Shown one piece after another: positions 1-25,427 of a DNA stretch of 64,000 nt. The translations under genes were made by a program, and so were the position numbers. Below the pieces are notes generated by a model, which ran no database searches, had not been told where the DNA came from, and saw only the letters and a program-made list of their open reading frames with translations. The stretch lies in NCBI GenBank assembly GCA_015231405.1, contig JADGBR010000009.1, positions 25,423 through 89,422 of the forward strand, given 5' to 3'. The DNA is from Candidatus Omnitrophota bacterium. GTDB taxonomy: Bacteria; Omnitrophota; Gorgyraeia; Tantalellales; Tantalellaceae. Positions within the stretch are counted from its first letter, which is position 1. Each line of letters starts with the position of its first letter.

Positions 1-210
1 AGCCATCTTCATCTCCAGAAGCGACCCTGCCCTTATTACCATAATATCTCCTGGATGAGATGTTCTGGCGTATTCCAGCGCTGTTTCACCGATATTCTCA
101 TCGGTCATCATGTTGTCCTTCGTGAGCTCGGAGATATTCATATTGTAAAGGCTGAGGTCACGTATCACCGGGACCATCACCGGCAGATCTATCCGGCTGA
201 GAAAATCCCC
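1..210 (-). other. Start of the shared C-terminal domain in D (the remainder lies beyond the window start)
   Basis: Translation of 300-1 gives IRRISANTSRPVTALTPRKIREIKAGMSDLGDFLSRIDLPVMVPVIRDLSLYNMNISELTKDNMMTDENIGETALEYARTSHPGDIMVIRAGSLLEMKMA. This matches the C-terminal domains of A (FLPVIMPLINDLGLYNMNFSEI), B (LPALPDVSGLKDNGMYYNLEM) and C (LPVMMAEINDLSMYNFNLCDI). Confidence 0.6.
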
Positions 211-3200
211 GAGATCGCTCATTCCGGCTTTGATCTCTCTGATCTTACGTGGGGTCAGCGCCGTGACGGGACGGGAAGTGTTAGCGGAGATACGTCTTAT
301 ACGATCGGCATTATTTTTCATGAATCTCTGGGTTTCCATGCTTTCGAGTTTCTGGATCAGGGCTATCACCGCCTCCATGTGATCTCCACTGTTCTTGTCC
401 AGATCTTCGGCCTTCAATATTCCTATAGAAAAGGTGTTAACCGAACGCGCGCATCCCAAAAGACTTTCCATATTCCTTAGCCTTGCCCTTTCATTTTCCG
501 GGACCGGCAATGGAACAAATAACACACTCGGGACCATATTTAGTTTTTCCGCGGCGTCCGTTGTGAGGAGATCATACCCTTCGACGCCTATGACCATATC
601 CTTTTCAAAAAACACTTCGGGAGTCTCGCTACCCGGAACCTCAGGGCGCCTTTCATCTTTTTCCTCAGGTTTTACCACTCGTTCTCCCGCGAACCGTTTA
701 CCGACAATGATCACCAAAACGGCCAAACTCAAAGCTACGCACAATATCACTAGGGGAAGATGGTTCGAGGCCAGGTTCGCGAATAATCCCGCCGCGTTAT
801 CACTTGCCGCCTGTTTCAGTCCCGCATCCTGGCCAAATAGGAGTGTTGTGAAAGCGTCGGCTACAGGCCCTGCTTTAGTTGCCGATAGCCCGAAATATTT
901 CTCGGCGTAATACAGCGGCATCAGGAAGCATAGATACAGTATGGTAAAGAAAGCTACCCCATATGTCCATAATTGCCTGAACCCGGAATGCCTCATGTAT
1001 AAATACGCCTTATCCCATTTTTCAGCCAGAAAATGCCTGAGCTCATTAAGCGGTTTCAATTCCTGCCGGGCGTATATTCTCTGAGGCAGACGGTCCAACC
1101 CGACCGGAAGTACCTTTTCGGTATATGGCCAGACATTATCGAGCCGCCACCTGATCTGGAACCACATTATTCGCGCCGCCGCGTTCAGGTTAACGAAATA
1201 AAGCGGCATATAGAACGATTTTGACAGATGGTACACGTAATAATATGGGATCAGCCCTATGCGGAGGTGTACTTTAAGCATATTTGACACAAGGACCGTG
1301 GCCATGAGCAATATACCAGAGAGCATCACCGGCAGAAAGACCGATGTTTCGATCATGAAAAAAGCCGTTAACGCTAAAGCGAAGCCAATGACAAAAGTGA
1401 GAAGACCGGGGCGGAAATATCCGTACAGGAATTTATCCCTCTCGGCTTTCAGTGTCTCTATACGGACCTTTATCGCCTCGGCGATAAGGATCCTTCCCCT
1501 GGTGACGGCCCCGTCCAACGGCCGAGACGGGTCCCCATAGTAGTCGGATAACAGGTCCGCGAAGAATACCGGCCTCCCGCCGTCATTTTTTTGTTTATCA
1601 TAATCCCTGTCACCGTGAATAAGCCATTCCCTGAACCTGGATATTACCTCACGGCTCATCCTATCTTTCTCGCGGGGTCCTATGATAGCCGCGTCGGCCC
1701 TTATGGCGTTGATCTCATTTACGGCGTCCTCCAGGTACTTCAAATCCTTGGTTACCCAGTTCGAAACGTCATCCTGTTGGAAATTTCCGGTCGCGCCGGA
1801 TCCTACTTTCAGAAGATCGGCTTCGAATTCATCGATCCTGTCGCCGTAAAAATCCCTTATACCCCTTGTGATCTTCTCGCGGCCTCCTAGCTTATTCTTG
1901 AAAAGCGCGGTCACATTGTGGTAGACCTGATAGAAATAGAACGTCATCATTATGGAAACTCCCACCGAGGCGGCGGCTATGAACCAGATATCCCACGGCA
2001 GCCATGTTTTCATGCTCTCGCTGAAAACGTGTACCATCCCGGATAGCCCCGACGGGTCTCGCGCCAACATGCTCGAAAGAGGCTTTCCGGCCCACAACGC
2101 GGCCCTTTGAAGTATCTCAGCGCCTACAAAAGCCAGGAAGTAGAAAAATGTCACGGCGAAACTGAGTGCCGTAAAAATAGTCGAAGTGAAACCCGAATCC
2201 AGCATTATGTTTATGAAGAAATTCCCCCAGCCGATCTGTTTTATCCTGTCCTCGACCTTTTCGGGCTGTTCTATGAAACCCCGGCGGGCGAGGAATAAGG
2301 TGAACGAACGGCTCAGCCGGTAGCTTAGCAATGCCCCTAGTACGGCGCCAATGGATGTCCCAATGAGCCCCAGGACGATCCCGTTCCTTAATCCCAGTAA
2401 ACCGCCCGCAATGCCCGCTAAGCCGAACGTAAAGAGAGGGATACAGATACTTAGAGACGCGCCGAGTATTGCAGAAGAGGAGACTATCATTATCCACCTT
2501 GACCGCTGCCCGTGCCAAGCGAAACCCATAGGACCTGCCTGTTCCAGTACTGAGGCACCCATGTCTGTATAATAATAGACTCTCTTCCCTCTCTGGCTGA
2601 CTCTCATACCCAGGGCCTTATCCTCGGTAGTATCGTCCCTGGGATGCATACCTAAAGGCTTGAGAATATTCAATTCCGCCATGATCTCCAGCATACGGCC
2701 CTTTGTTTCACCATCCAGATCCTCATGGACGTTTATCCTCGCTTCTTCGAGTATGTCCTCAACCTTACCACGCGCTGTCCTCGTTCCGTCATGTTCATAC
2801 CCTGTCATCGACCTCGACTCGAACCAGTTCGAAAGTCCGTCCAGATGGAATACCGTATGTGTCTTGGATAAACGCATTATCGCTCCCCACCCTCTTTCCC
2901 TCCCCATTCTCACCAGGGACGACGAAAGGATGAAAGCGCCGTAATACCCTATGACCGGCATGAGGATCGTAGTGGCCATCACTATAACGCTCGGGCTGAA
3001 CGCCATAATGGTCTCAACTGAACCCGCTATACCCAGGACCATGCCCACTAATGTCGCGACAAGCGCGATAGGGCTTCTCGGAGCCACCAGGCCGAATTTT
3101 ACCGGTCCCCAGCCGTTATAATCCAGATGAAAGGACTTATTGAGCCCGTAAGGGAGCTGAACCGGCATGCCCTGCATCACGGACGGTCCTTCTCTTTCTC

Positions 3201-6200
3201 TCATCTCCTCTATTATGTATTCCTCCCTCGTGGGATAAACCCCGGCACCCGGCTTAAAGATCTTTTTCATCATATCGCCTACAGGGTCACCGTCCTCGGC
3301 CAGAAATGCCATCTCAACATACCTGTCATATTCTTCCGATATTCTCACGCCCGCGTACAGGTCAATGTTCCACCTTATAGCCTCGTTGTAAAGAGTTCTG
3401 TTCCTCCTTATAAGATTCTCCGGAAGTATATTCTCGGGACGCGCCGTATATGTACCATCATCGTTCCTCTCCATTATCTCACGGGTAAGGCATCCGACCA
3501 GGTTCTTAACGCGTTCATATCCGGCTGAAACCGTCCAATAATGGAAGAGCTGGGGTTCATTGTCCTCGTCAAGTATCTCCCAGATCTCCGGCATGGCCTT
3601 AAGCCCTTCCTGGAAATCGACCAGCATATCCGTGTAAGCCATATTCGTCCCGCTGGGTTTTGATAAAGGCTGGTTCTGCTGGCCCGGCTGGTTCGGTATA
3701 GGCACAGGCTCTGGATGCGTCCTCACGCGCATTGGGTCCATGCCTATTGCCCTGGCCGCCTGCTCTCCGGACGGCACTATATTCATCGCGCCAAGCGTTA
3801 ACGGTATTATGGTCGCGAGCGAAACATTGAACCTGTCGGGCGGGTAATGCCCCTTGGTCACCGCGTGGTCTATACTCCGGGCGGCGCAGCTGGCGGCCGT
3901 CGGCCCGGGCATGGTAGGACGCATGACGTCGATATCCGTAGCCAGTTTCCTGGCCAGGTCCACCACCCCGTTATGTCCCAATTCGTCGTGAATGGCCCGG
4001 AGAATAGCCCTGTTATCAACAACCCCAGGGTCAGCGACAAAACCTGAATAATCAGGCATGCCATCCGCGCCGTTAAGGATACCCGTGCCCGCGAGCAGCC
4101 TCAGGGTCTCTTCCCTTAAAGGAGTGGGCGAAGTTCTGGTTCCTCTTAACCGCCTTATCACGCTGGCCAGAACGGCCGGACCCAGCGAAGAGTTCTTGTC
4201 CGCCCAGGTCGGGTTGTTGAAGAACTGCGGCGGTGTATCCAAAAGATTGAACAGGCTCATCACAAGTTTCACCTGATCGATCCCGTTCAGGTATACGTAA
4301 TGGTAATTCCTTATGGTCCTCCCTTCCGCCCCGGTCTCAGCCTCTTCCGGGGTCTGCGCTTCCACTCCGGCTATTGATTCCGCCACCTGATACTCGCTGT
4401 CGGTAACGAAAGTACGTGTCTCTTTCCAGAAGAACCCGTTCGATTTCAACCAGGGCTTGAGGAACATCGTCGAGATCATGAACGCCGTGCCGCCCGTCAC
4501 AAGGAACATCTTGAAACCCATATTGAGCCATGTCGCGCTTTTGTCTATACCTATCGACAACGGGCCCAGCGTCAGGACCTCAGGCAATAAAGGTATCACA
4601 AACCAGTATAAAGCATGGCTGATAGCCACCAGTATGCCTACCGCGACCAATACCGTCCTCCCATGCCTTTTCAGAACGGTCTCGAGCGCTGACAATGAAC
4701 CAAGCCTACCGTGCTCCACGCTTTCCCTGGCAGCTACATGAGCCCTGTTCCTTTTAGCGTCAAGCGGATCAACGAAACCCTTGATGTTCTCCAAGAGCAC
4801 CGCTGTCTCCCATAATTCGTACGGCACAGTATGGGCGAACAACTCCTTGCTCTCTCTTTTAGTACCAGAAGGCCAGGTCATAACCCTGCCCATCCGGTCT
4901 GTCTCGAGCCCTCCGGCATAGACACCCGACCCCGGCACAATGGCGTCATCGCCGAAGCCTGACAATACGAACCCCCCGGATGTTCCGGCGTTAACGTTAT
5001 TATCATCCTGATTGAACGACAGTTTCCGCCATCCGCCGCCGTTCTTTTCAGGGTACATGTCTTGCACGAGTATCCGCTTATACCGCATCTCGTCAACCAC
5101 CCATACACGCCATCTAAAGTCTGTTTCCCCGCCAGAATCGATCACATGCTCGGCGTCGCCTTTTAGAGCTTGTGCCTCTATTCTGGAGATCGTTATCGTA
5201 TCGAAAATAGCCTGGTACGCCGACAGGTCCGTGGTCAGGCTGTTCACGTCCGGGAGGGGCACTCGCATCGGGATGCCGACTATACTATCGGCCACAAGCT
5301 GTCTCATCCTCGATGTCACGGCGTCATCAGCGGCGTCGGGAGCGATAAGCTTTTTTAACGTTTTTTCGGCTTCGTCAAGATTGTCCAATACCATCTGCAT
5401 GGCCTCGGATTGCGCGCGAGCGTATATTAGCCTTTTCCGGGATACAGACCGGAGAACCTCGTCCCTCAGCCAGAAAAACATGGGAAACCACCGGCGTTCC
5501 AGAGACTTCCATTCTTTTTTGTTGACCGTAATCGTCTTTCTCTCGATCTTCGCCGGCCAGATAAGGCTTATCCCCATTATTATTATCCCTGTAAGCCATA
5601 GATTATTGTTCGGAAAATTCAGGATACCGGCTAACCCCATTGCCCATAACCCAAGAGCGGCTAGCCCCGTGACCATCACACAAAAAGCGGTCCCGGGCCT
5701 GGTGGATTTTCCGGTTTCCCACAAGAGCCAAATGGGTTTGGCCATATTTCCCATATCGGTGGCTTTCTTTGACCGCCTCCCGACATATTTATCTATTATT
5801 TTCACGACCTCGCCTACTCCTTTTTTCCGGGCCTCAAGATCTATCCCGGCCGCTCCAGGGACAGGTGCCGGAGCGGGTGCAGGTGCCCGTGCCGGCGGAA
5901 CTACGGGAGGCACAGGGTCACTATAGGGATGATCTTTACTCCACCGCCATTCGGTTATCTTACGTTTAATAAGCCCCACGCTGAATATTAAAAGCGCCGC
6001 GGCCAGACCGTAAATCGTCATATTCATCATGAAAACTTTCCTCGAGTTGACCTCGTCGGAAATATATGTCAAAGCACCCGGGCTATGGAGGTTAACCATC
6101 GTCACCGCCTGGTCAATTGCCTGGTCCCTCCTCAGGCTTTTCACCTTTTTCGCGTAAACTGTGTCTCCCTTCTCTACCGATACCGCCAGCTCGTAGAGTA

Positions 6201-9200
6201 TCGAATAGATCCTGTCAACGCTTTCTTCCGTTTTCCCGTCAAGATCGTACTTTTTCATTAAGACTTTCACCGCCGATTTAATTCTGTCGTTCCCGGCTAT
6301 TGCCCTTACCTCGCCCTTCAGATCCCCGTATCTCGAATTCGCGGTCTGATCGCCCCAGGCCAGAAGCTTGTATATGACCCGATCCACTTTGACATCCTTT
6401 TGATCCAGCCCCGCCAAGCTGGCTATCATCTCCCTGACAAAGAACACCGTCTCCAGCGCTTTCCTTATTTCGGGACTTTCGCTTGGATCAACTACCCCCT
6501 TGGCCATCATCATCTCATGAACGGCCGCCAACAGATCCTTATTATCATGGCGACCAAGATCGTTATCCGGGTCCATGCCGTTAAGAAAAGCCTGTATCAT
6601 AGAGCCGGCGGCTTCTTCCGGCATGACCTCGAACATGGTCTTTTTATTATCTCCGGGCACTAGCGCCGTTACTCCGTCGGGTACCTCTCCAAGTCTGATC
6701 CTTCTCCCTCCAACGACCATATCGACCCATCTCTCGGCGCTATCCACAAGAACCGTCCTTTCCACTCCTTCCGCTATCCTCTGGAGCGCCATCCCTTTTA
6801 TGAAAACGTCCCCGTCGAACGTGCTGGATGAGCCCCTGCCGATCGATATCCTTATACCGAGTTCGGATATCTTCCGCGGATCGACCTTTTTCTGGAACCC
6901 GGGCCTCACCCTCACCGTTATCCAATTCTCTCGGTTGTTCTCGCGGTTCCCCTCAGTTATGTTTATGGTGAATCCCGTACTCAGCTCGCTCTCTCCGGTC
7001 TTTATGTTCACCCAATTCCCTTCATGTCTCGCTTGATCGCCATACCAGCCTTTATTAGCGCATGACGCCTCCAGACCGTTGGATATTATCCTGTTTTCTC
7101 CCAGAAAGTCGACATCCCCCTCTTTGCCGTCGAACCTCAACTGATAAACGAATTCCCAGTTCCTCAGGTCAAGCGTCCCGTCAGGGTCTACTTTTAGTTC
7201 ATCGTGCGTATTTTCGGCGCCGGCTAATAATTCCGACAACGGCATGTACAACGAGGCGCAGCGGGTCTTCTCGCTCCCACCTATCCGCACATGATATCTC
7301 AGCACGCCTCGGTTCGCCTGGGGATCCCACCCCGGGACCTGTTCCATATTGTCCATGTTTCCGGGTCCGGCTTCGCTAAAACCCTTTAATTCGGTCCGGT
7401 CCGTATATACCGCCGAATCGAAATATGGTATGGGGGTCTTAATACCGCGCCACGCGACGAGACTGGCGAGTTCGCTGTTTATCTGATAGTATTTATCGTC
7501 GGCTATTTCCCTGCTTATTTTGCCTTCCTTGACAGCCTCATCCAGTATATTCCCTATGGCGATCATCTTCGCCGTCACTATGAACGGCGCGGAAAGTTTC
7601 ACTTTGCGCCATTGCTTCATGACGTAGTCCTCGCTCTCCCCTTCGTACATCGCCCTGAAAGCTCCGTCCGGTTCTTCCCTGCCCATCATATTTATCTCTT
7701 CGCTCACCCATCCCTTGAGATAATCGACATCCCAGTTATTCTTCAGCTGCTCGATAAGGTAGTTCAATACCGCGGCGTACGAATGCCCTTCAGCATACTG
7801 AACGAGGCCAAGAAGAGCCAGGGGAGCCCTTACCAGATACTGGATCTCGGTCCGTTTCACCCCTTCGGACACCTCCGAGCTTATGATCTTATATATCTCT
7901 ACTACTTCGTAACGGTCGATCTCGGTCACCTTCCTCCCATCCCTTTCCGTATCCCTCGTCGACCCCTTTATTTTTATCCGGATGTCCGGAGAGATCAGGG
8001 AAACCCCGTAAAAATATCCGGATCTCCCCGGAACACAGTCTCCGGGAACGCTTATACTGAATTTTTTCCCGTCATGCTCAATAACGCAGAAATACTTAAC
8101 CACTATCTCTCGCGATGTATCTGCGGCCAACCCGTTAAAGTCAACACCCTCAACCTCACATTCCGGATCGGCTTCCATTTTCCCTCTGGCGACCCTTATC
8201 CTGAAAATTTTCCCTTTATCGGGCGAATTGTCGTCGTCGATACGCATGTACGCCGTTTTTGGGTCGTTAGGATCATCGTAAGCGAATGTCTCCAGCCATC
8301 TCTCTTCACCCTGAGAGAGCCCTTCCGGCGAATACGTGATGCCGAAAATACCTCCCAGTATCTTCTTATCTCCTCCGGGAACGGGCGTCATTACATCCCG
8401 GAACTTCTTGAGAGGGGTAATTCCTTCTATATCGGTGCCTTTAAGCACCGCCCTTACTTTCATTTTCACCCCGGGTTCGTTGACACTCGAGCCAAAGAAC
8501 TCGCTCTCCCTGTCGTGAGGGGCATCGGCAGGAATTACGAACCTATACTTTTTTCCCGCGACCGTGTGCGGCTTAAAATATCTGACCGCCTTTTCACCCG
8601 AAGCGTCAACCTCACCGTTACCTTTAAATACAACTCCCGTGACCTCTCTTTCGGCCTCCGGCTCCATTTTCCTGCCCAGGACATCAATGCGGAATATCTT
8701 ACCTTTATCGGGGGATAACTCATCGCTGACAATGACATATGCTTTGGAAGGATCCGCCGTATTGTCATAACCGAATTTCCTGAGCTCCTTAGCCGTGCCG
8801 GAGACACTGCCGTCGAGCGCGTATGTCAATCCCGAGAATTCCCCTATCGTGAGGGTCTTCTCATCGCCTTCTTTTTCCGGGAAGAACAGAGCGGCGAAAG
8901 TGGTCTTACCCGCCTCCATGGTGTACTGGATCTTCGGGTCCCTGATATCGTCATACCCGATCCATTTAATGACCGCGTCCTTATCGGGCGTGCCTTTAAC
9001 CATGCTTGTCACGCCGTCCGTCTCAAAAAGAGACAGCTCTCTTATGACAAGCCCCGTCTTACCGGCATTCATATCGTAAAATGCGAGATAATAACTCCCG
9101 GTCTCCTTGTCCTCTATGAACTGGAGGGTAAGATCGGCGTTATAGCCGTAGTTGACAAGAACATCCCCCTCGTCTTTCACCTCACCCTCTTCCAGCTCGG

Positions 9201-12200
9201 CTGAGGCGAGTTTTTTTATGGTTATTGGCTTACCGTCCACGAGGATATACACGAACACCTCGCCGGCCTTCACCTTATTCGCTTCGACCTCGGGGGAACC
9301 CGTTCCGTATTTTTTGTAGTAGTGTATTACCTCCAAGCCGTCCTTGGCCATTTTCTTCGCCGCGAATTGATAGATCACCTTCCTGTCAACGTCCTTGACC
9401 CCGCCTTTCCCGTCAAGCTCAACGCCTTTTAACTGGGCGATCACCGGCCCGCCGAAGGAAGACGACAGAAAAACGTCTCCGGCGGCATTCTTCCCCTGGA
9501 TAACCTCGGGAGAATTCGCCGTCATTTCCTTGTAATAACCGGATGCGTCCCATCCATAAAGGTATATTGTCTTCTCAACCGACTCCACGGTCCCGTCAGG
9601 TTTGATCTTCACGCCCGCGCATTTCCTTATAAGTGAACTCTCGTCGTCCTTGTCCAGATATACGAAAGCTTCTCCTTCCCGGATCGAAGCGTCCGGCCCG
9701 AGGACATACGGGGATCGCGCGCCGTGGACAACTAAGAACAGTTTTCCGTCCGGGCTCTTCGCGAAAAGATACATCGTCTCTTCATTTATCCCTATACATT
9801 CCTTCCAGTCCTTTGTCGGGTCGTAATACACCTCGGCTATTGTCCGGCCGGGGACCAACACGTCCGGCTGGTACATTTTATAGATGGGCCTCGCCTCCGG
9901 CTTATGTTCCCGATCGGTCTTTTTGTCGATGAACTCATGCCTGTATATGTAAGGCGAAGCTTCGGCCTGTCTATATTCGGCTACAAGTACGCCGAGCCCG
10001 TCGGGAAGGACCCTATTGACGCTGTTCATCTTCATGTTGTATCTTTCCGCGGATAGTTTCGTGAATTTTTCGTCCACCATAAGGAGGTTGTCGTGTTCCT
10101 TTACGACGATATCATAAACGTACCAGACTTTGTCTCCGCTCATACGTTCACAGCGTTTAACGGGTATCCCGCTCGGGCCGTTTATGTACGTGACCTCTAT
10201 CTTCTTCGCCTCTTTTGTACCGTCGGCGTAGGTTATTTCTACCTTTCTGTTATGGACAAGGCCCGTCACGACGTCTTCCTCATAATCAACAAGAGTTATT
10301 CTTCTTATCTCTTTTGCCGCGGCGCCTCTTCGTACGGCAGGGATACCCGCCGCTCCACCGGCGGGAGGGACCCCTATGACCGGTGTTCCCGGCACCCTGA
10401 CCGCTCCCGGAGCCGGCTTCAGCGCGGGAGCCGGCGCTCTACCCCCGGTGGCTTGTCTTAAAACCGCCCGGAGCGATCCCAGCCACGCCTCCCTTTCGTC
10501 TTCGTTCCTCCACGTACGGTCATCGAGCCCGGTGTTCCAATTCCATACCGCTATCCCTTCGATACCGTTATCCGATGCGAGGCTCAAATACTCATCTATT
10601 CCGGTCGGATCCGAACCCGCCGCGGTCGAAAGCTCCTCGATCCTTACGGGAACTCCCTCGTCCTTGAATGTTTTTATCGTCGCCAGGAGCGCCGCCCTCG
10701 CCTCCCTCCCGAACCTGTCGGCGTAATGGTGTATGGCCGCGTAATCCAGCATCCTCACTTCCTCGCCGTTCACCGTTCCCGTCCGTTTAAAAAGTGCGGC
10801 GATAAGGTCGATATATTCCGAGGTCCCTTCCTTTTCGGTATTAACGCTCATCGTAATAAGCTTGCCGGGGGCCAGTTCTCTGATGGTTGCGGCCACTTTC
10901 CCGGCGTATCTCTCAAAAAGGTTTACAGGAAGCTTCGTTTGTTCTATCTCGTTGAACAGGTCGAACCCTTTAAGGGCTTTATGCCCGCCAAACTCACGAA
11001 GGAACGGTTCAAGGAAATCCGAGACAAAAGCGTCAAGCGTCGCCTCGTCCTTCAAAAGCGCGTCCCTGCCGAAAATACGCACTCCTTTGTCGTTCTTCCC
11101 CGGGAACGCCGATTGGTGGTCCAGCACACAGAATTCTATTCGCATACCCAGGCTATCGGCAATGTCCAGGAGCGCTTTCATGTCTTCCTTGAACCTGATA
11201 TTCAGCCCATACGGTACCTTGAGCTTCCCGTTCTCGTCCAACAAAGCGCGCCCGTCGGCGACAAGGTTCATACGCACAAAAGTCATCCCGCTCTCTTTCA
11301 TCGCGGCGAGGTCCCTCCTTACTTCGACTGTATGCCTTGATATCCCGTTCCCGTTCTTATACCAGAGGGTCGTTCCGAAATTCTGGCCGTACCCCGCCGG
11401 CCCGTTATAATTCACCCCTACTTCAGGAAGAGCGGCGCCGGAAGCGGCGGGGGCCTGTAGCATAGCAACGGACATCTGGGGCATAAAGAGCCCTATGAGA
11501 CCCATCCCGAGGTTAACTCCGTTATCGAATTCCCTCCTAATAGAAGAGCGCCTAGCCTCCGACAGCATTTCCTCCGGGACATTTTCCGAAACACCTCTTC
11601 TCCCCGGGAAAGCCCTCATATCGAGGCCGGCACTCTTGTTCCAGAGATCCTCGATCCACGTGTTCCTGGCGGGCGACACCTCATGGCACCTGTCCCTGAA
11701 ATCATCTTTCCACGGCTTTTTAGTCACTTTCCCGGGAACAGACGGGTCATATTCGAGATCAACGGTCTCTACTACAATGAATTTTCCTTTATATACTATG
11801 CCGGTCGATATCTTCATGGGTTTACCTTTGAACCGGCTGGTCTTCGAATACTCGAATTTTTTGTATTCATACACCGTTGTCCCGTCCGGAAGCGTTACGG
11901 GTATCTTCTCGAGGTCCGTAACAACACTCCCGGTCTCCGCGTCTTTATGTTTGAAGAACTCATGAAGCCGGTTGGATTCAATGGTGTGGAACCTTGTGAA
12001 AAGAGTATGTATCTCGGCCGGAGACCCGGAACCGAGTATTATCTCCCGTTCATCCTTATCTCCCTCGTAATCGAACGAAGTGGTCTCGGTTTCGTCCACC
12101 CAGTTCATATCGTATTTGTGTTCTTTTTTGTTCACATGGTCGGGAATAATGTGCTGGCTGAGATATTCTATGGCGTAATCTATCGGGTTCTTCCCGTTCT

Positions 12201-15200
12201 CGTAATATCTCGGCAGGAAACCGTCATGGTCTCTCATGGCGTCGGCTATCTCGCCGAGTTTGGCTATGCCTTTGGCGACCTTAGCGTCAAATTCGCGTTT
12301 TTGGTCTTCGGTAGCGTTGTTATTAAGAATAGCCTTCCCCATCGTCTCCTCGCGTTTATAAACGTCCCGGACGAGAAAAATCGCCTTGTAAAGCATCTTT
12401 TCGTACATGCGGCGCCTTAAAAGCATCTCCTCGCGTTTATGTTTTGCGTCCCAGAACTCCTGGTCGGATCCCACGCCTTCCGCTTCGACGGCCCTCATCC
12501 CCTCGCCGTCGGGCATATACCTCAAATACTCATCGTATGGCAGCCCGAATTTATCCTCGGCCAATTTCGCCGCTTCGAGCATGTGTTTCCTGAACAGTTC
12601 GAGGAGTTTAATGTCGATCTGGTTGCTTGTCATGAAAGCCTTCAGACCCATAAGGGTATAAAGGTCGTCCTCGTAAGCGACCCTTTTCTGTTTCGTGTAC
12701 ATACCGCTATCTTTGAAAGCCGCGGAAAAAGGCTGGGTTCCGTCAAGGTTAAGGGGCGCCGCTGTGACAGGGGGCCTGAAATTATTGATATCCTCGAGAT
12801 GCTCGGTACCGAAACTCGCGTCCCACTTTACCGCGTTCGGGCTGTACTGCCTGAAAAGTCTCATCCCTATGTTATACCAGCCTTCTTCGACGAATCCGTC
12901 TATGGTCCTCACATAATGAGCCCCGATATGCTCGCGCCTCAATAACCCCTTCATAGTCGGCGTCAGTTCCCCTATCCCCTCCATAGCCACAAGAGCGTCT
13001 ATGAACTTCCTGGAAAGACTCCTCGGCATGGCGGCTTCCATCTCTTTCTGCCATCTCATATAATCTTCTCTGTTCCTGACCTTTAAAAGATCGTTCTCGC
13101 ATTTTTTCTCCCATTCCCTCATCTCCCGTTCATCAGTGGTCTGCCACTTGCGGTCCATGGCGATATTTACCCTAAAAAGGAGGGTTTTCCTAGCCGAAGC
13201 GAGCATCTCTAGCCTCTTCTGGAGCTCGCCGGCGAGTTTCTCGTTCTTTTCATCCACCGCTTTCTTTATTCGGACCTTTAGTTCTTCTATATCCGCCTTC
13301 AATTTCTCGGCCTCCTTCCTCTCCTTTAAACCCCCGAAATACGCCGAGAATTTTTTTACTTCTTCCCAATCCCTGGAAGTCATGACACCGGGCTTTAAAC
13401 CCTTCACCCGGTAATATTCGTTCCGTGACTGGAGGTATAAAAGCTCTCCAAGTTTGTTCCCGAAATCCTTGTCGATGGCCGATAGCTCGGCGTTCTCGGC
13501 GCTTGAAAGGAGACCCGAGGCGAAAGTCCCGAGATAATGATGCGGCGGAACTATCTCAGCCGCTATTGTAGTTGCCATTTCGGCCATTTTCCTCGTATTG
13601 AAACCTCTCGACGGATTCATCTTTATATAATCCGAAAGGAACCTGTTCCACCTTTCTCTCGAAAGTTTGGACGCCGCGTCCTTGTTGAATACCTGCATCG
13701 CGGCGATCAGATAATCGACGTCCTCGGCGTTGACAGGAACATTCGGGAGTTTCGGAACTATTTTTCCCCCGGCCGCCATGACCCCTAGCTCCCTTGCTTT
13801 TTTCACCTGAAGCGCCGTCAGTTGTTCCTTCCTATCCGCCGGAAGCGAAGCTATCTTACCCCGAAGGTATTCAGTCACCGCAGCCAGCCATTTTTCGTTC
13901 ATCCTATTGTCCTTAACTTGAAGCATCTTCTCGAGCTCCTCCAGCCTGAAGGCTTTTTTCGTGGCGGCATCAAGAAACTCATTCATCGCGGCCATGGCCG
14001 CCTCTATCTTTCCTATCGCCTCCTTGGCTCGCTCCTCCTGGTTTATTTTTTTGGCGTTAAGCTCGGTTATTACCGCCTTGAGCCATGGGATATTAAGCTT
14101 GTTAGCGCCAAGAGCGTTCCTCCTTGCCTCGACAATGTCCCTGTCTACACCGGCCGGAAGCGTTTTTTCCAGATGGGCTATAAGTTCTTCGGCCTTTTTC
14201 TGGACTGCTTCAAGCTCTTTTTTAGCGAGTTCGTCCGAAAGCATCTTAACTGCTTTTTCCATCTCATCCCTTTTACCCTTAAGGCCCCTTATCCACTCGG
14301 TCCATGTATCAGTCTGTTCCTTGGGATAAAATTTTTTCAGACCTGAGATCAGACGGGCGGCGTCGGCTACCAGCCCTTTTGTATCGTCTACCCCAAGTTT
14401 GTCCTCGGCTTTGACTTTCGCCGCTTGAGTCGCTTGGACCTTATCTTTAAGGGCGAGACTTGAAAGAGTCCCTTCAAGCCTTATTTTTATGGTATCTATG
14501 GGAGTTTTGCCCACGGCGTCCTCTAGTGCCGCTATTTCGGACGCCGAATAGGGCCGCCCCGCGAGTTCCCTCTCCTTTTTCATTGCAGCCACATAGGCCC
14601 GCCTTATTCCCTCCTGCGAACTCGCGAAACTCAGTCTCTTTTCCCTAATTATCGCCTCAGCGTCGAGAAGGGCCTTATCCGACGTTCTAATGAATTCCCG
14701 GATAGCTTCATCGTCCTCATGTTTTACCCAGTCCTCTATCTTCCTGCCGCGTCCGATTATCCCGCCGACACCCTCTGCTCCAAGCTTATTGCCGCTAACT
14801 ACGGCTTTTTTCTCCAGGTCCAGCCTCTGCCTGACGGCGTTCTCAGCTACCGTAACCGCCACTTTCAGCTTGTCCTTATCCGTGAATTTTCCGGCTTCCG
14901 TTTCCAGGGCCAGCCGTGCCTCATCCGTGCATCCGGGGATAAGAGCGGCTCTTGCTTCTACCCATCGCCTGACTAGCGGCCTCATCTCCGCCTCAAATTG
15001 TTTCTGGGGGAGGCTCTCCTCGAGAGCTTTCGTCTCAGCCCTTCCTTTAATGAGCGTTTCTAATCCATTAACAGCCTCACGAAGCCTGTCATAGGTCATC
15101 TCGTCAGCTATTTTCTCAAGATCTTCCCGGCTCTTATCGCCGTAAAGATCATTAGCGTCGGGGGCAAGCTCGACGAATTTCTTAGCGAGAAAGGTTTTCC

Positions 15201-18200
15201 ACTGAACATTTGTCCGGAGCTTTCCGATCAATTCGTCCAGGAACGACGTCTCTTCGACCGGAGTTCTTGTCCTGGCGTTTTCGGCAAGGTATTTCATATA
15301 CTGTTCCACAGGTATTTTATGGATTTTCTCTACAAGAGCCGCCGCTTCATCCCGTTTAGCCTGGATCCCATTCATTATTCTTATTTCTTCTAAAAGCTCA
15401 TCCAGGCTCATGTTCAGAGATACGTCATAAACGGCACCGAACTCCTTGCCATATAGCCGTTCCTGTTTATCACGGTACTCTACTCTCGCCGCTTCCGCTC
15501 GCTCGACATTTTTTGCCAGTTCCCTTTCTTTATCCCGAAGGGACTTAAGGTCACGAAGCTCTCTGAATATTTTTTCCCCCAGTGCCTCATGTCCTTTCGG
15601 ATCCGTCTTTTTCAGGGATCCGGTTATGGATCTCTTGACCCTTTCCACAGAAAAATAATAAGTAATACCTTCTTCCAGTTCTTTCTTATCGAACCCCGCC
15701 GCTTTCTCTTCCAATTTCTCTTTTGTCGTATCGGGAAAAGCCGCCAGACCGCCTCTCACGAATGAGTGCCTGGCGATATCAGTTTCATGCTCGGTTATGG
15801 ACCTTTCCAGGCCATCCTTGTCCATTGTTTCATATACTCCCAGATCGGTCATCTTGAAATCGGCATGAGCTCTTACATGTTTATTCCTGGCGTCAGCCCT
15901 CAAGGCCTTCATCTCCTCGGTATCAGGAACGGCCTCTTTGACCCCTTCATCCGGCGGTCCCGCTCCCCCGGCGCCCTCAGGCTCCGGAGCAGCTTCTCCC
16001 AAGTCCGCCATAGCTAACATTTCATCGAAGACATCCTCTTCGACGCTGTCCGCCAGTTCCGTCGCCGCTTCCCGAGTTCCGTCGAGTGGAGCTAACGGGT
16101 CGGCCTCCGTGCTGACCGGTGTCACTACCGGCACAGCCAGTATGTCCGCGACCGTTACCTCTTTACCCTCCCATATCCTCCTAAAATTATCCCGGACCTG
16201 AGCCACCGCCCCTTCTTCATAAACGTGGCTCACATATCTCGAACTCGCCTGTTCCACCATACTCCCGGAGGCGATCGACGGGATAGCCATTATTATGCCG
16301 GCTTGCATTACAAGCTGGGTCATTTTCCGCGAATCCGCTATTACCCCCGCTATCTTCCCCGAAAATCCGGTCAACTCTTCGCCGCTGGCAAGGCGCCTTA
16401 CAAGCCCTTTCCTGTACGAAATGATGGCCATGACAATTCCGGCCACGGTAAGGATGAAAGCGCCAACGCTCCCGGCCAAAACCGCGATCGAAGTCCCCAG
16501 GGCCATTGTTTTAGCGACCCCTGTGACCGTTCCGAGAATAGCCGCTAAGCCTAAAGCCCCGAGAACCAGCATCCTCACGTCAACCGCTCCTGACCACACC
16601 ATGCGTTTCCCGACGCCCAACAATTTGCTCCCGCCGAAAGTTTTGTGCTCAATTTCAGAAAAACGCGCCGAAACATAGGGTAGGCCGACGAGATAGAGAA
16701 GCGCGAGAGTGAACGTCACTATAGAACCCAAAAGCATTACGAGGCTTACAGCGCCGATGAACTGTCCGGTATAAATGGCCGTGCCGTAGAGAAGGGCTAC
16801 AGCTACGCCTGAAGCGAGGAGCCCCTCGGCCCTTTTCAGCCTGGCCGCGCTTGAATCCTCGAGCACTCTGTCGTACTGGCTCCTTTCCAACTCCCTTATC
16901 CCTATTCCGATCAAAGTTATCGCGCCGGCGCCGATCATAAGGCCGGGAACATTCGTGAACATAAAGAGAAGCGCTATCCCCGAGATGACCGTCATACCTG
17001 TCGTAAGAGCGGAAAAGAACCTTTTCATATCATCCGTTTTAACTAGTTTCGGAGTTATGACTTCGCGCCGTGATATCATCCTCGCCTTGGCAACGGCCAA
17101 AATGATGGATGATATTACACCGGCACCGGCCATAAGCGCGATTAGAGGTAAAAGCACCGGGACCGCTCTCGGAAGTGCTACCGCCGATATCATGGCAAGG
17201 ACAGACCCTACGGGGGCGAACGACGACACCATAATTAAAGCCATAGCCGGGACCGCTTTCACCGCTCCCAGCCAATCCTTTGCATCCAGAGAGCCTTTCA
17301 AAACAAGCTCAATATTTTCTTTACCTTTATATATCTCGCCAAACTTGGCCACATGACTCCGGTAAATAGAAAAAGCCAGGAATATCAACCCTACAGCCGC
17401 CACCACCCACAGACAGGCAGGCATCACGGTGTATATATCCGTTATCAGGAATTTTACATGCCCGCTCATCGCAGTTTCGCCTATCCCACTACCATCCGAA
17501 ACAAAGCTCATGACGCTTGTGAGCTTCATGGCTAAATTCATTACCTGCCATGAAAGGGCTATTATCACGCCGCCGAAAACTAAGCCCGGAAGGACTTTAA
17601 GCACTCTTTTCCCTCTTTCAGCGGCCGTCTTTGGCTCGAGTTCGCGTTTCAACATATCGGATATACTCAGATCCTCTCCCCTCACTCCGGCCCCTATCAA
17701 TATTTCCCTTGAAAGATCGGCGTTCATATAAGCCACGGCATATTTGAAAGCTTTTTCCGAAGCGCTACTGAACTCCCCGAAGACCTTTTCCTGGGACCTT
17801 GCGGCAACAGCCCTCCATCGGGCGTTCCTTACCTCAAGGCTGAGTCTGTGCTTGACCTCGGAAACCTTATCGAAATAATAGCTCGAAAAAGCGTTGTCCA
17901 TTATCTGTAAAAGCCCTTTACGAAAATCTGCCATATTGTTTTTCGCAACTTTAGCGGCTATAAGGTCTAAATCCTTTATTAAACTCTTTAGTTTCTGGTC
18001 GTTAAAACGCCCCTCGACTACCGCGGCCCGAATATCCAGAAATGCAGCTTTTCTGGCCTCAACCTCGGCCTCAAAACGCGCTTCCTCGCCGAACCCTCGT
18101 ATCCTTGAATCCATTATCGCCCTTCTTATCGAGCCGATAAGGCTTTCGACCTGGCCGGGCCTTATCCCTACCTTCGATGCTATGAACCCTGACTCAGGTT

Positions 18201-23538: not shown

Positions 23539-23639
23539 ATGACACTTCCTTTTTATTACCTTTATTCATTAAATGTTTTAATAAGTTTTTAATTATTTTT
23601 AGCCTTAATTTTTCCTTATTATTGGAATTTATAAGGTCA

Positions 23640-24065: not shown

Positions 24066-25427
24066 TTACGAAGAGTCTACTATCCCCGCAAATGGATTAT
24101 CATTGCAAAGTAATATCGTTTTCAGCGTATCAAGTACATCCATCCCGTTCAGTTTGGCCGTCTGGATCACGCTCATAAGAACGCTATGGTATCTAGCTCC
24201 CTGTTCCGATCTGTTGCCGTATGTTATCTTTCTCCGGATAACTCCCGGCCTTATTTCCCGTTCCGCACGATTATTGTGAGATTCGATATCTTTCACGTAA
24301 AAAATGGTGAATATCTCGTTCTTGTGCCTCTCCAGCCTTTTAGCGATTCTATTTAATATTTTCTTATTCGGGTCAGGGAACCTGAAATCCTCAAGACTTT
24401 CTACGATCCGTTTTCGTCTCCTTATATACTCCTCATCCCATTCCTTATTTCGATGTTCGTCGTATAATTTAATACCATCCTTCAGTATCTTTACTAGCCG
24501 CCTGGCGTATCTTATAACCCCCTTATCCTCCCTGTCCCAGAATTCTAGTACCTTTGACAGGTCCCTTAATAAGTGTAATAAACACCGCTGCTTCTTCGCG
24601 GCTATCTTGTTATATGCCGATAAAAAGTCCGTTATCAATACCCCCGTCATAGTGGTCTCCAAGGATACTTTGAACGACCTTTTGCCCCCGGCTAAGGTCT
24701 ATGTGTATCACACTGACGAACCTGGTAACGAATTTCCATAACCACCCCGTCTTTCCGTTTATCTTCCAGCCCGTCTCATCACCGTTGTTAAACGGGCTTT
24801 TTCTTAATTCCGTCATCAGTAGGGAGTATATCCTTTCAGCCTTAGCAGCTGCTTGTCTCCTGAAATCCGTAATAGCCGAATGACATAGCTTAAGTCCAAA
24901 GATCTTATCAAATACTTTACGTATATCCCCGTCGGAGACTTTAACGTCATATTTCATGTATATGGCCAGAGCCTTGGCGATGGGTCCGATGCGACTGTTG
25001 TCCAGCTCGTCCTTACCCCGGCCGGTGACCGTATCCCGGCACACGGGACAATAGTATTTCTTCTTGTCAAACCTGGTCGTTATTATCCCGGGCATGATTA
25101 TGTCCTATGAGTGTGCTGGATGGTTCCCTGGCATTGTCGCAAGTCGCTTGAACCGCAGACCGGACATTCAGTTATCCGGACCTCTACGATCTTGTCTATT
25201 TTGTCTGGTGTTTGCCTGAACCAGCCGATGTGACCGAACAATCCGCCTATTTTAGACTTGGATCTTTTAGATGTTTTCTTCTTTGATTTGGATCTCGGTT
25301 TTTTCTTTCGGTTGAAGAAGTCCGATTTGAATTTATTAAGTTCGAATCGCAAGCAGACTATTTCACCGCGTAATTCCTTAACGGTCTTTTCATAGTCAGA
25401 GCAATCTTTACAACCGGTAATTTGCAT
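24066..25427 (-). pseudogene. IS66-family (single-ORF, ISBst12-like) transposase broken into three frames
   Basis: ORF 25427-25098 ends CPVCGSSDLRQCQGTIQHTHRT. Two bases later, in a different frame, ORF 25095-24610 begins MPGIITTRFDKKKYYCPVCRDTV, so the N-terminal zinc finger is split. That ORF contains DETGWKINGKTGWLW, matching the IS66 DETPxxVxGKxGYLW motif. ORF 24662-24066 overlaps in a third frame and contains HNNRAEREIRPGVIRRKITYGNRSEQGARYHSVLMSVIQTAKLNGMD, matching the IS66 DNNxAERxIRP...GRKNxLF...TAKxNGxDP motif. The two frameshifts indicate a pseudogene or a sequencing error. Confidence 0.65.

What the first reader, a model, noticed from the sequence alone, without database searches (positions are those of the whole stretch)
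10550..11400. GH5-like glycoside hydrolase domain in D, a candidate cell-wall or polysaccharide-degrading module
GMTFVRMNL (GFNxVR(I/L)P-type), FDLFNEIE (the NEP acid/base region with Ile in place of Pro), AIHHY and WNWN are spaced as in clan GH-A (beta/alpha)8 barrels. This is the only clearly extracytoplasmic-type catalytic domain seen. It fits the idea that such giant proteins act on a partner or prey cell surface or on the cell's own envelope.
Basis: partly seen in the sequence, partly recalled or inferred. Interest (0 to 1): 0.65.

Follow-up and report, generated by a model that had tools for sequence, protein, structure and literature searches.

The report
GH5 glycanase domain in giant protein
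The flagged stretch encodes an intact family-5 glycoside hydrolase domain, most similar to beta-mannanases, inside a giant membrane protein (at least 7,855 aa) of an Omnitrophota-type bacterium; such sugar-cutting modules are already reported in these giant proteins.

Summary
All four motifs lie at the stated coordinates on the minus strand, inside a 23.5-kb stop-free frame (D, at least 7,855 aa, cut by the window edge).

- **Family:** the isolated domain (D aa 4045-4368, window 10462-11433) passes Pfam PF00150 (GH5) at 40.5 bits against a cut-off of 23.5.
- **Homologues:** 224 representative homologues were found.
- **Fold:** the AlphaFold2 model (pLDDT 93.4) is a (beta/alpha)8 barrel with these residues at the strand ends.
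- **Nearest structures:** the best matches by sequence profile and by fold are the four animal beta-mannanase structures, one of which (2C0H) is the GH5_10 reference.
- **Origin and host protein:** the closest relatives come from Omnitrophota MAGs. D also has a divergent SecA-like ATPase and transmembrane clusters, the known Omnitrophota giant-protein pattern.
- **Location:** most free-standing homologues have signal peptides, and D has a signal-peptide-like segment just before the domain. Both suggest extracytoplasmic display.

Substrate, target (prey or own envelope) and topology are inferred, not shown. Verdict: correct and solid, but a new member of a known kind; moderate interest.

The parts
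1..23538 (-). Giant ORF D. The stop-free frame is 1..23565 and the first Met is codon 10. It is at least 7,846 aa from that Met and its C-terminus lies beyond the window's left edge.
   Evidence: D aa 5091-7644 are 65% identical to aa 1508-4108 of the 7,175-aa Omnitrophota MAG protein MBF0216447.1. If D keeps that protein's length, roughly 3,000 more residues lie outside the window.
10462..11433 (-). GH5-like (beta/alpha)8 glycoside hydrolase domain, D aa 4045-4368
   Evidence: PF00150 at 40.5 bits. The family HMM matches D here at E = 3.4e-97 and nowhere else in the four giants. AlphaFold2 pLDDT 93.4, eight beta/alpha units. Foldseek and profile hits to beta-mannanase structures.
11272..11274 (-). 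R4098, the conserved beta2 Arg (in GMTFVRMNL)
   Evidence: 93% conserved in 74 homologues, invariant in A1. Lies in model strand 56-62.
10948..10953 (-). N4205-E4206, the Asn plus predicted acid/base Glu (NEIE; family consensus NEPEW)
   Evidence: Each 96% conserved. They sit directly after model strand beta4, residues 158-164. They align with the NEPE motif of 5Y6T, 2C0H and 3VUP.
10723..10731 (-). H4279-H-Y4281, the beta6 His-x-Tyr pair (AIHHY)
   Evidence: H is 99% and Y 97% conserved. End of model strand 235-239. Aligns with the H-t-Y motif of the mannanases.
10633..10635 (-). E4311, the predicted catalytic nucleophile (second Glu of VRIEELS)
   Evidence: 99% conserved. Lies inside model strand beta7, residues 267-273. 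Aligns with the Glu of the G-E-F motif in 2C0H, 5Y6T and 3VUP.
10543..10545 (-). W4341, the beta8 Trp (first W of WNWN)
   Evidence: 100% conserved in 74 homologues. End of model strand 297-301.
11422..11568 (-). Signal-peptide-like segment directly upstream of the domain (aa 4000-4048: MLSEARRSSIRREFDNGVNLGMGLIGLFMPQMSVAMLQAPAASGAALPE). A candidate internal signal-anchor, or a relic of a captured secreted-enzyme gene.
   Evidence: It is one of only two 17-aa windows with Kyte-Doolittle mean of 1.4 or more between aa 2490 and 5848. Four Arg lie on the N-side and no Lys or Arg on the C-side. Analogous internal segments precede the GH5 domain in the large proteins P0003 (lipobox-like FSGC) and P0020 (SRRKFIK, resembling a twin-arginine export motif). 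The function is inferred.
10315..10446 (-). Pro/Ala/Gly-rich linker after the domain (aa about 4374-4417: GGRAPAPALKPAPGAVRVPGTPVIGVPPAGGAAGIPAVRRGAAA)
   Evidence: Read directly from the translation. Such linkers are typical of modular secreted glycoside hydrolases (my own knowledge).
18409..19815 (-). Divergent SecA-like ATPase region of D (aa about 1251-1719): SecA_DEAD, SecA_PP_bind, P-loop_SecA
   Evidence: PF07517 at 74.3 bits, PF01043 at 66.3 bits, PF21090 at 29.8 bits.
16432..17604 (-). Cluster of about 8-9 hydrophobic (transmembrane-type) segments, aa 1988-2378. A second cluster lies at aa 5848-7621 (window about 703-6024).
   Evidence: Kyte-Doolittle scan, 19-aa windows with mean of 1.6 or more. 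The parity, and therefore the sidedness, is not resolved.

Best explanation
Window 10462-11433 (minus strand) encodes an intact family-5 glycoside hydrolase module (clan GH-A, a (beta/alpha)8 barrel).

**Predicted mechanism.** It should work as a retaining beta-glycanase by double displacement. E4311 on strand 7 attacks the anomeric carbon and E4206 (NEIE, end of strand 4) acts as acid/base. R4098, H4279, Y4281 and W4341 form the -1 subsite.

[quoted passage not shown] A beta-1,4-mannan or glucomannan-type glycan is therefore the single most likely substrate class.

**Setting.** The module is embedded at about residue 4,045 of an Omnitrophota giant membrane protein of at least 7,855 aa. That protein also carries a divergent SecA-like ATPase and two transmembrane clusters.

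**Location.** A signal-peptide-like hydrophobic segment with Arg residues on its N-side immediately precedes the module, and a Pro/Ala/Gly linker follows it. I infer that the segment acts as an internal signal-anchor, so the glycanase is displayed outside the cytoplasmic membrane. There it would cut polysaccharide of a host, prey or matrix surface.

**Shown:** fold, family, conserved catalytic residues, taxonomic affinity, secreted nature of the free-standing homologues.
**Inferred:** activity, substrate, sidedness, biological target.
For: **Family and catalytic residues**
- PF00150 hit at 40.5 bits against a cut-off of 23.5; 12 of 27 family members also hit PF00150.
- 224 homologues at E of 1e-3 or better among 1.84 billion representatives.
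- In a 74-domain alignment: R4098 93%, N4205 96%, E4206 96%, H4279 99%, Y4281 97%, E4311 99%, W4341 100%.
- The AlphaFold2 model (pLDDT 93.4, pTM 0.92) has eight strand-helix units with these residues at the C-terminal strand ends.
- Foldseek top hits are 4OOZ, 2C0H, 4OOU, 3VUP and 5Y6T. The family profile hits the same four proteins at 9e-26 to 2e-22, against 2.4e-7 for the next GH5.
- Characterised GH5_10 enzymes are extracellular endo-beta-1,4-mannanases, with one xylanase exception (PMC3526467, PMC5576741).

**Taxonomy and host protein**
- The four closest homologues are all Omnitrophota MAG proteins. One of them is named 'cellulase family glycosylhydrolase' in its NCBI record.
- D is 65% identical over 2,600 aa to an Omnitrophota giant.
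- SecA_DEAD and SecA_PP_bind domains are present.
- Giant Omnitrophota proteins with divergent SecA domains, many transmembrane helices and glycosyl hydrolases are described in bioRxiv 10.1101/2023.11.21.568195.

**Extracytoplasmic location**
- 56 of 78 complete-looking medium-size homologues (300-1,100 aa) have a signal-peptide-like N-terminus, and 17 of those a lipobox-like motif.
- Partner domains in homologues are dockerin, FN3, FG-GAP and BACON. One homologue is fused after a 10-segment PMT_2-type membrane glycosyltransferase (segments).
- Internal signal-like segments precede the GH5 domain in D, P0003 and P0020.
Against: - No enzymatic or topological data exist.
- Identity to the mannanase structures is only 16-19%. 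GH5 spans many specificities and one GH5_10 enzyme is a xylanase, so the substrate call is weak.
- The canonical beta3 His of GH5 is not conserved in this clade; an invariant Asp (D4149) sits there instead.
- The D subclade lacks the beta4-alpha4 loop of about 25 aa that the other members and the mannanases have.
- The hydrophobic segment before the domain is only borderline for a membrane helix (Kyte-Doolittle 17-aa mean 1.48). The number of helices in the 1988-2378 cluster (8 or 9, plus possible ones at 2418 and 2470) leaves the side ambiguous.
- The other domains in this locus's giants are cytoplasmic-type enzymes. Published topology predictions for such giants are admitted to be unreliable.
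- Only 3 of 13 large proteins with this domain show an upstream signal-like segment.
- The Pfam hit disappears when the domain is scanned inside 860-aa or 4,657-aa pieces.
Confidence: 0.7

Rival explanations
1. The GH5 module is the 'processing' hydrolase of the cell's own exopolysaccharide or envelope-glycan synthesis machinery. It would be analogous to the endoglucanases BcsZ and CcsZ that accompany cellulose synthases, trimming or releasing a self-made beta-glycan rather than attacking another cell.
For: - The same protein has a GT2-like hit within its C-terminal transmembrane cluster (PF13632, 20-23 bits).
- The neighbouring giants carry phosphoglucomutase/phosphomannomutase, guanylate kinase and methyltransferase domains, which is sugar-nucleotide-type chemistry.
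- The GH5 endoglucanase CcsZ, a cellulose-synthase subunit (6UJE), is among the Foldseek hits at rank 24, E = 2.3e-9.
- One homologue is fused to a PMT_2-type membrane glycosyltransferase.
- A 2026 preprint finds a 'sugar metabolism' domain module recurring in long Omnitrophota proteins.
Against: - The GT2 hit is below Pfam's cut-off (23 against 27 bits) and covers only half of the profile.
- CcsZ is a much weaker match than the mannanases.
- Most homologues are free-standing secreted proteins or lipoproteins, with dockerin or BACON modules typical of degradative enzymes.
- No synthase operon was seen next to the one free-standing homologue whose neighbourhood was scanned.
Confidence: 0.2
2. 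The domain stays on the cytoplasmic face of the membrane, like the metabolic enzyme domains of the neighbouring giants. It would act on intracellular or imported oligosaccharides.
For: - No strong transmembrane helix lies between the 1988-2378 cluster and the domain.
- If that cluster has an even number of helices and the 4020 segment is not membrane-inserted, the domain is on the same side as the SecA-like ATPase.
- The other domains in the locus are cytoplasmic-type.
- Nearly half of the long Omnitrophota proteins surveyed are predicted to have transmembrane helices but no signal peptide, which that study reads as cytoplasmic-facing enzyme content.
Against: - The family is overwhelmingly secreted.
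- The signal-like segment with Arg residues on its N-side sits exactly at the domain's N-terminus.
- A Pro/Ala/Gly linker follows the domain.
- Characterised GH5_10 enzymes are all extracellular.
Confidence: 0.08
3. The module is a catalytically dead, lectin-like carbohydrate-binding relic, or the motif matches are chance resemblance.
For: - The canonical beta3 His is missing in the clade, and Pro of NEP is replaced by Ile in D.
- The Pfam hit is lost in long query pieces.
Against: - Both catalytic Glu residues and the Arg, His, Tyr and Trp are conserved at 93-100% across 74 homologues.
- The model is confident and matches GH5 structures with probability 1.0.
- Profile E-values reach 1e-25.
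Confidence: 0.02

Closest known systems
GH5 subfamily 10 (GH5_10) endo-beta-1,4-mannanases: Mytilus edulis MeMan5A (2C0H, the GH5_10 reference structure in PMC3526467). I also take Aplysia kurodai AkMan (3VUP), Cryptopygus antarcticus (4OOU/4OOZ) and Eisenia fetida (5Y6T) to be GH5_10, from my own knowledge.
   Same: - Same (beta/alpha)8 fold, TM-score about 0.70.
- Best profile matches by about 15 orders of magnitude over any other solved GH5.
- The NEPE acid/base motif, H-x-Y, the nucleophile Glu on strand 7 and the strand-8 Trp all align.
- Both groups are secreted enzymes.
   Different: - Only 16-19% identity.
- This clade has its own invariant D-G-R motif after strand 2, plus D4128 and D4149.
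- The D subclade lacks the beta4-alpha4 loop.
- Here the domain is a module inside a giant membrane protein, not a free enzyme of about 350 aa.
- Subfamily membership was not tested and no activity is known.
Giant Omnitrophota proteins with divergent SecA DEAD domains, transmembrane helices and glycosyl hydrolase domains ('Archaeovorin-type'; West-Roberts et al., bioRxiv 10.1101/2023.11.21.568195). The type example is the 39,678-aa protein of Velamenicoccus archaeovorus.
   Same: - Omnitrophota affinity.
- SecA_DEAD plus SecA_PP_bind domains.
- Many hydrophobic segments.
- A glycoside hydrolase among largely unannotated sequence.
- Methyltransferase and sugar-metabolism domains in the same locus.
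   Different: - D is at least 7,855 aa and truncated by the window, and the four genes here are 2.8-7.9 thousand aa, well below the 30,000-aa class of that study.
- That paper's main text highlights a GH76-like fold and contains no 'GH5' or 'cellulase'.
- The internal signal-like segment before the hydrolase did not appear in the passages of that paper I read.
MFH1304811.1, 'cellulase family glycosylhydrolase, partial' [Candidatus Omnitrophota bacterium], together with RKY41049.1, MBF0216447.1 and KJJ83357.1
   Same: These are the four closest homologues of the domain, at 40-47% identity. MFH1304811.1 also shares D's N-terminal module (42% over 645 aa), and MBF0216447.1 shares 65% identity over 2,600 aa downstream.
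   Different: All are unstudied MAG predictions. Three of the four are named after other domains or simply 'membrane protein', so the GH5 module is mostly unannotated in them.
CcsZ and BcsZ, endoglucanase subunits of bacterial cellulose synthase systems (CcsZ is GH5, PDB 6UJE)
   Same: A GH-A fold hydrolase that works together with a membrane glycan synthase. 6UJE is a Foldseek hit at E = 2.3e-9. D has a weak GT2-like hit.
   Different: A much more distant match than the mannanases. No bona fide synthase domain was confirmed in D.

Membership tests
Glycoside hydrolase family 5 (CAZy GH5; Pfam PF00150; clan GH-A) | Sequence-profile membership: PF00150 score above the curated gathering cut-off | tested here: met
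   40.5 bits against 23.5, E = 3.1e-10, profile positions 24-269 of 272. 28.1 bits in an offset 400-aa piece. Caveat: not reported when scanned inside 860-aa or 4,657-aa pieces. 12 of 27 clade members hit at E of 0.01 or better.
Glycoside hydrolase family 5 (CAZy GH5; Pfam PF00150; clan GH-A) | (beta/alpha)8 TIM-barrel fold | tested here: met
   AlphaFold2 pLDDT 93.4 and pTM 0.92, with eight strand/helix units. 549 PDB chains match at E of 0.001 or better. The 19 best are all GH5 structures and the other families in the top 50 are also (beta/alpha)8-barrel glycosidases.
Glycoside hydrolase family 5 (CAZy GH5; Pfam PF00150; clan GH-A) | Acid/base Glu preceded by Asn (N-E-P motif) at the C-terminal end of strand 4 | tested here: met
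   N4205-E4206, each 96% conserved. They follow model strand 158-164 and align with NEPE of 2C0H, 3VUP and 5Y6T. D has Ile in place of Pro.
Glycoside hydrolase family 5 (CAZy GH5; Pfam PF00150; clan GH-A) | Nucleophile Glu on strand 7 | tested here: met
   E4311, 99% conserved. Inside model strand 267-273. Aligns with the Glu of the G-E-F motif of the mannanase structures.
Glycoside hydrolase family 5 (CAZy GH5; Pfam PF00150; clan GH-A) | Remaining strictly conserved GH5 residues: Arg (beta2), His (beta3), His and Tyr (beta6), Trp (beta8) | tested here: inconclusive
   Arg, His, Tyr and Trp are met at 93-100%. The beta3 His is not conserved in the clade: D4149 is invariant and the next residue is H in D but Y or F in most members. 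The aligned mannanases also lack it and have W-N there.
Glycoside hydrolase family 5 (CAZy GH5; Pfam PF00150; clan GH-A) | Retaining hydrolysis of a beta-glycosidic bond | not testable with these tools
   Needs an enzyme assay and stereochemical analysis by NMR or HPLC.
GH5 subfamily 10 (GH5_10) | Monophyly with GH5_10 in the GH5 subfamily phylogeny, or a dbCAN GH5_10 sub-HMM assignment | not tested
   No dbCAN or CAZy tool was available. Nearest by profile (9e-26 to 2e-22 against 2.4e-7 for the next) and by fold, but only 16-19% identical. It could be GH5_10, a neighbouring subfamily, or unassigned.
GH5 subfamily 10 (GH5_10) | [quoted passage not shown] | not testable with these tools
   Characterised members are mannanases, with one xylanase. 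No bacterial relative of this clade has been characterised.
Omnitrophota SecA-domain giant proteins (West-Roberts et al. 2023) | Divergent SecA DEAD-like and preprotein-binding domains in a very long ORF with many transmembrane helices | tested here: met
   PF07517 at 74.3 bits, PF01043 at 66.3 bits, PF21090 at 29.8 bits. About 25-30 hydrophobic segments.
Omnitrophota SecA-domain giant proteins (West-Roberts et al. 2023) | Omnitrophota origin | tested here: met
   Indirect. The four best homologues of the GH5 domain are all Omnitrophota, as are the best matches to D's N-terminal module and its C-terminal region. The source contig itself was not found in any collection.
Omnitrophota SecA-domain giant proteins (West-Roberts et al. 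2023) | Length of 30,000 aa or more, as used for 'giant' in that study | tested here: inconclusive
   D is at least 7,855 aa and is cut by the window edge. The three complete neighbours are 2,824-5,669 aa.

The most novel reading that the evidence does not exclude
The giant gene grew by in-frame capture of a complete secreted-glycanase gene, signal peptide included. The retained internal signal sequence still works. Together with the SecA-like motor built into the same polypeptide, it would direct export of the downstream GH5-bearing segment. It might even be cleaved by signal peptidase (ASGA|A in D; lipobox-like FSGC in P0003; a twin-arginine-like SRRKFIK...TGC in P0020), releasing or lipid-anchoring a glycanase fragment. 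On this reading Omnitrophota giants are self-exporting polyproteins punctuated by internal signal peptides.
Probability: 0.2. Interest if true: 0.7.

Novelty: new member of a known kind. Interest (0 to 1): 0.35.

Why it matters
It gives one of these largely unannotated giant Omnitrophota proteins a concrete, testable catalytic module: a construct of about 330 aa with two named Glu residues to mutate, and beta-mannan or glucomannan as the first substrates to try.

It also brings to light a clade of at least 224 representative, mostly unnamed bacterial proteins. That clade is the nearest relative found here of the small GH5_10 mannanase subfamily, whose bacterial side is poorly sampled.

There is a practical lesson too. 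Pfam missed this domain when it was scanned inside long pieces of the protein. Giant proteins should therefore be scanned in pieces of about 300-400 aa.

The signal-like segment in front of the domain offers a handle for testing how parts of such proteins cross the membrane.

Tried and rejected
- **Word-indexed protein search.** With the domain alone it found nothing. With the family alignment it found one JGI hypothetical protein, whose neighbourhood was uninformative.
- **NCBIfam.** No hit.
- **Finding the source contig or close loci.** The genome collection gave only a weak 47-residue match in a Gammaproteobacteria MAG. An exact look-up of the 2,824-aa protein and of P0002 found nothing. 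The first metagenome scan found nothing. The second returned seven loci, mostly free-standing homologues. The neighbours in L007 (PASTA, HTH, RtcB) say nothing about substrate.
- **Other Pfam domains in the transmembrane-free region.** None in D aa 2380-5930 or in the flanks 3650-4000 and 4420-5100. No internal repeats there either.
- **Second copy of the domain.** None in any of the four giants.
- **GT2 domain.** It stays below threshold even when isolated, so I do not count it as established.
- **Internal start codon.** An in-frame ATG preceded by GGAGGAA lies at aa 4000. The spacer is only 2 nt, so I treat it as probably chance.
- **Sidedness from helix counting.** Rejected as unreliable, because there are 8 or 9 helices plus two borderline ones.
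Full report
**1. What is at the coordinates**

- GMTFVRMNL, aa 4093-4101 (window 11263-11289)
- FDLFNEIE, aa 4201-4208 (10942-10965)
- AIHHY, aa 4277-4281 (10723-10737)
- WNWN, aa 4341-4344 (10534-10545)

The plus-strand ORFs in the same stretch are antisense to this 23.5-kb frame, and I treat them as non-coding.

**2. Is it a GH5 domain?**

Yes.
- *Pfam.* Scanned on its own, the 329-aa stretch hits PF00150 (Cellulase, GH5) at E = 3.1e-10. The score is 40.5 bits against a curated cut-off of 23.5, over profile positions 24-269 of 272. An offset 400-aa piece still scores 28.1 bits.
- *Solved structures, single sequence.* The only PDB hits are beta-1,4-mannanases: 3VUP at 8.6e-6, then 2C0H, 5Y6T and 4OOU.
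- *Homologues.* An exhaustive HMMER search of 1.84 billion representative proteins gave 224 homologues at E of 1e-3 or better, 67 of them at 1e-10 or better.
- *Conserved positions.* In a 74-domain alignment, conservation is R4098 93%, N4205 96%, E4206 96%, H4279 99%, Y4281 97%, E4311 99% and W4341 100% (alignment A1). By my knowledge of the family, these are the positions that define GH5 and clan GH-A.
- *Clade-specific positions.* Also highly conserved are D4104-G-R, D4128 and D4149.

**3. Structure**

AlphaFold2 with alignment A1 gives pLDDT 93.4 and pTM 0.92, with eight strand-helix units. The conserved residues sit where a 4/7-superfamily enzyme needs them:
- R4098 lies in strand 2.
- N4205-E4206 come directly after strand 4.
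- H4279 ends strand 6, with Y4281 two residues on.
- E4311 lies inside strand 7.
- W4341 ends strand 8.

Foldseek against the PDB returns 4OOZ, 2C0H, 4OOU, 3VUP and 5Y6T first (E = 5e-15 to 7.5e-13, TM-score about 0.70, 16-19% identity). Fungal GH5 mannanases, an exo-mannosidase, GH5_18 and GH5_22 enzymes follow, and the cellulose-synthase subunit CcsZ is at rank 24.

The A1 profile hits 5Y6T, 2C0H, 3VUP and 4OOU over their full length at 9e-26 to 2e-22. The next GH5 structure scores only 2.4e-7. The NEPE, H-x-Y, G-E-F and Trp motifs are all in register.

2C0H is the GH5_10 reference structure. Characterised GH5_10 enzymes are extracellular endo-beta-1,4-mannanases, with one beetle xylanase exception, and the bacterial members are essentially uncharacterised (PMC3526467, PMC5576741).

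**4. Differences from canonical GH5 and GH5_10**

- The beta3 His is not conserved. An invariant Asp (D4149) occupies that region, and the aligned mannanases have W-N there.
- D and its closest relatives lack a beta4-alpha4 loop of about 25 aa that is present in the free-standing homologues and in the mannanases.
- D has NEIE where the family consensus is NEPEW.
- I could not run dbCAN, so subfamily membership is untested.

**5. Whose gene is it?**

The source contig was not found in any collection. The four closest homologues of the domain all come from Omnitrophota MAGs:
- RKY41049.1, Ca. Makaraimicrobium thalassicum
- MBF0216447.1, 7,175 aa
- MFH1304811.1, named "cellulase family glycosylhydrolase, partial" in its NCBI record
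- KJJ83357.1, Ca. Omnitrophus magneticus

D aa 5091-7644 are 65% identical to MBF0216447.1 aa 1508-4108. D's N-terminal module (aa 48-679) is 42% identical to MFH1304811.1.

D also carries SecA_DEAD (74.3 bits), SecA_PP_bind (66.3 bits) and P-loop_SecA (29.8 bits) domains at aa about 1251-1719. Two clusters of hydrophobic segments lie at aa 1988-2378 and 5848-7621.

This is the architecture described for giant Omnitrophota proteins: divergent SecA domains, many transmembrane helices, glycosyl hydrolases and transferases, and methyltransferases. [quoted passage not shown] A 2026 survey reports the same SecA-type architecture cluster and a sugar-metabolism domain module in long Omnitrophota proteins (bioRxiv 10.64898/2026.06.07.730766). 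Neither text contains GH5 or PF00150.

**6. Is it extracytoplasmic?**

The family clearly is.
- Of 78 complete-looking homologues of 300-1,100 aa, 56 have a signal-peptide-like N-terminus, and 17 of those a lipobox-like motif, by a crude heuristic.
- Their partner domains are dockerin, FN3, FG-GAP and BACON. One homologue is fused after a 10-segment PMT_2-type membrane glycosyltransferase (segments).

For D itself the evidence is indirect.
- The domain sits in a stretch of about 3,400 aa without strong hydrophobic segments.
- Immediately upstream (aa 4000-4048) lies MLSEARRSSIRREFDNGVNLGMGLIGLFMPQMSVAMLQAPAASGAALPE. It has an Arg-rich n-region, a moderately hydrophobic core (Kyte-Doolittle 17-aa mean 1.48) and a small-residue c-region.
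- That core is one of only two such windows between aa 2490 and 5848.
- Two other large proteins have an even clearer internal signal directly before their GH5 domain. These are P0003 (KWLGVLVVIAMAFSGC) and P0020 (SRRKFIKIAGAAGAVAVAAALG...TGC, resembling a twin-arginine export motif). The other ten do not.
- A Pro/Ala/Gly-rich linker follows the domain.

I read this as an internal signal-anchor, probably inherited from a captured secreted-enzyme gene, that places the GH5 module outside the membrane. This is an inference. Helix parity cannot be settled by hydropathy, and the literature itself calls topology predictions for these proteins unreliable.

**7. The rest of the locus**

At Pfam level the GH5 module is the only recognisable domain in D aa 2380-5930, and it is single-copy in the window.

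The other giants carry cytoplasmic-type enzyme domains:
- 2,824-aa protein: PEP-utilizers_C.
- 4,036-aa protein: phosphoglucomutase/phosphomannomutase domains I-III and a weak CofD-like hit.
- 5,669-aa protein: two guanylate kinase domains and a SAM methyltransferase.

D has a sub-threshold GT2-like hit (23 against 27 bits).

This content keeps a rival alive: the hydrolase may process the cell's own glycan, as BcsZ and CcsZ do, rather than attack another cell. I give that rival about 0.2.

**8. Verdict**

The observation and the family assignment are right and robust.

The most likely mechanism is a retaining beta-glycanase (E4206 acid/base, E4311 nucleophile), displayed outside the membrane by an Omnitrophota giant protein. 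A mannan-type beta-1,4-glycan is the best single guess for substrate.

My confidences are:
- domain identity, about 0.95
- extracytoplasmic location, about 0.65
- mannan-type substrate, about 0.35

Glycosyl hydrolase modules in SecA-bearing Omnitrophota giants are already published, so this is a new member of a known kind. The modestly new points are the clade's affinity to GH5_10, its near-total lack of annotation, the internal signal-like segment, and the loss of the Pfam hit in long query pieces (against 5, 42).

Noticed in passing
window 24066-25427 (minus strand): An IS66-family transposase is split into two overlapping ORFs (24066-24662 and 24610-25095, both PF03050). An upstream Cys-rich ORF lies at 25098-25427. 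This looks like a frameshifted or decayed insertion sequence, sitting between giant gene D and the 2,824-aa giant gene.
   Followed up: partly
window 26151-34625, 34698-46808, 46971-63980 (minus strand): The other three giant ORFs embed cytoplasmic-type enzyme domains:
- 2,824-aa protein: PEP-utilizers_C (7e-32).
- 4,036-aa protein: phosphoglucomutase/phosphomannomutase domains I-III and a weak CofD-like hit.
- 5,669-aa protein: two guanylate-kinase domains and a SAM methyltransferase.

A phosphomannomutase-type domain beside a mannanase-like GH5 is suggestive but untested.
   Followed up: partly
window about 21500-23440 (D aa 48-679) and the N-terminus of the 2,824-aa ORF (about 34200-34500): D and the 2,824-aa giant share a conserved N-terminal module (…IVNIQDAHSS…EGSTGYIDTS…). 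The same module recurs at the N-terminus of the large proteins P0003, P0005, P0051 and P0064 (27-42% identity). It has no Pfam match.
   Followed up: partly
window 18409-19815 (minus strand): Divergent SecA-like region in D (SecA_DEAD, SecA_PP_bind, P-loop_SecA), about 270 aa upstream of the first transmembrane cluster. This matches the 'self-export' idea in the literature.
   Followed up: partly
window 10456-11865 compared with longer pieces of D: PF00150 is reported for pieces of 329-400 aa. It is not reported when the same domain sits in an 860-aa or a 4,657-aa query. I attribute this to HMMER's speed filters on long targets. It means domain content of giant proteins is under-called unless they are scanned in short tiles.
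   Followed up: yes
window 11566-11583 (minus strand): An in-frame ATG at aa 4000 is immediately preceded by GGAGGAA, right at the start of the signal-peptide-like segment. The spacer is only 2 nt, so it is probably coincidental. It could also be a relic of the start of a once-separate secreted GH5 gene.
   Followed up: no
window 2341-2655 (D aa about 6972-7076): A GT2-like match (PF13632) lies within the C-terminal transmembrane cluster. It scores 20-23 bits, below the cut-off of 27, and covers only the second half of the profile.
   Followed up: partly
free-standing homologues P0008, P0010, P0011, P0014, P0024, P0026, P0031 and others (aa about 30-250): Most homologues of 550-800 aa share an N-terminal domain of about 230 aa after the signal peptide. 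It begins with a conserved D-W-x-P-Q-D-Y-x-D-S-x-G motif, has no Pfam match and is absent from D. It may be a carbohydrate-binding module.
   Followed up: no
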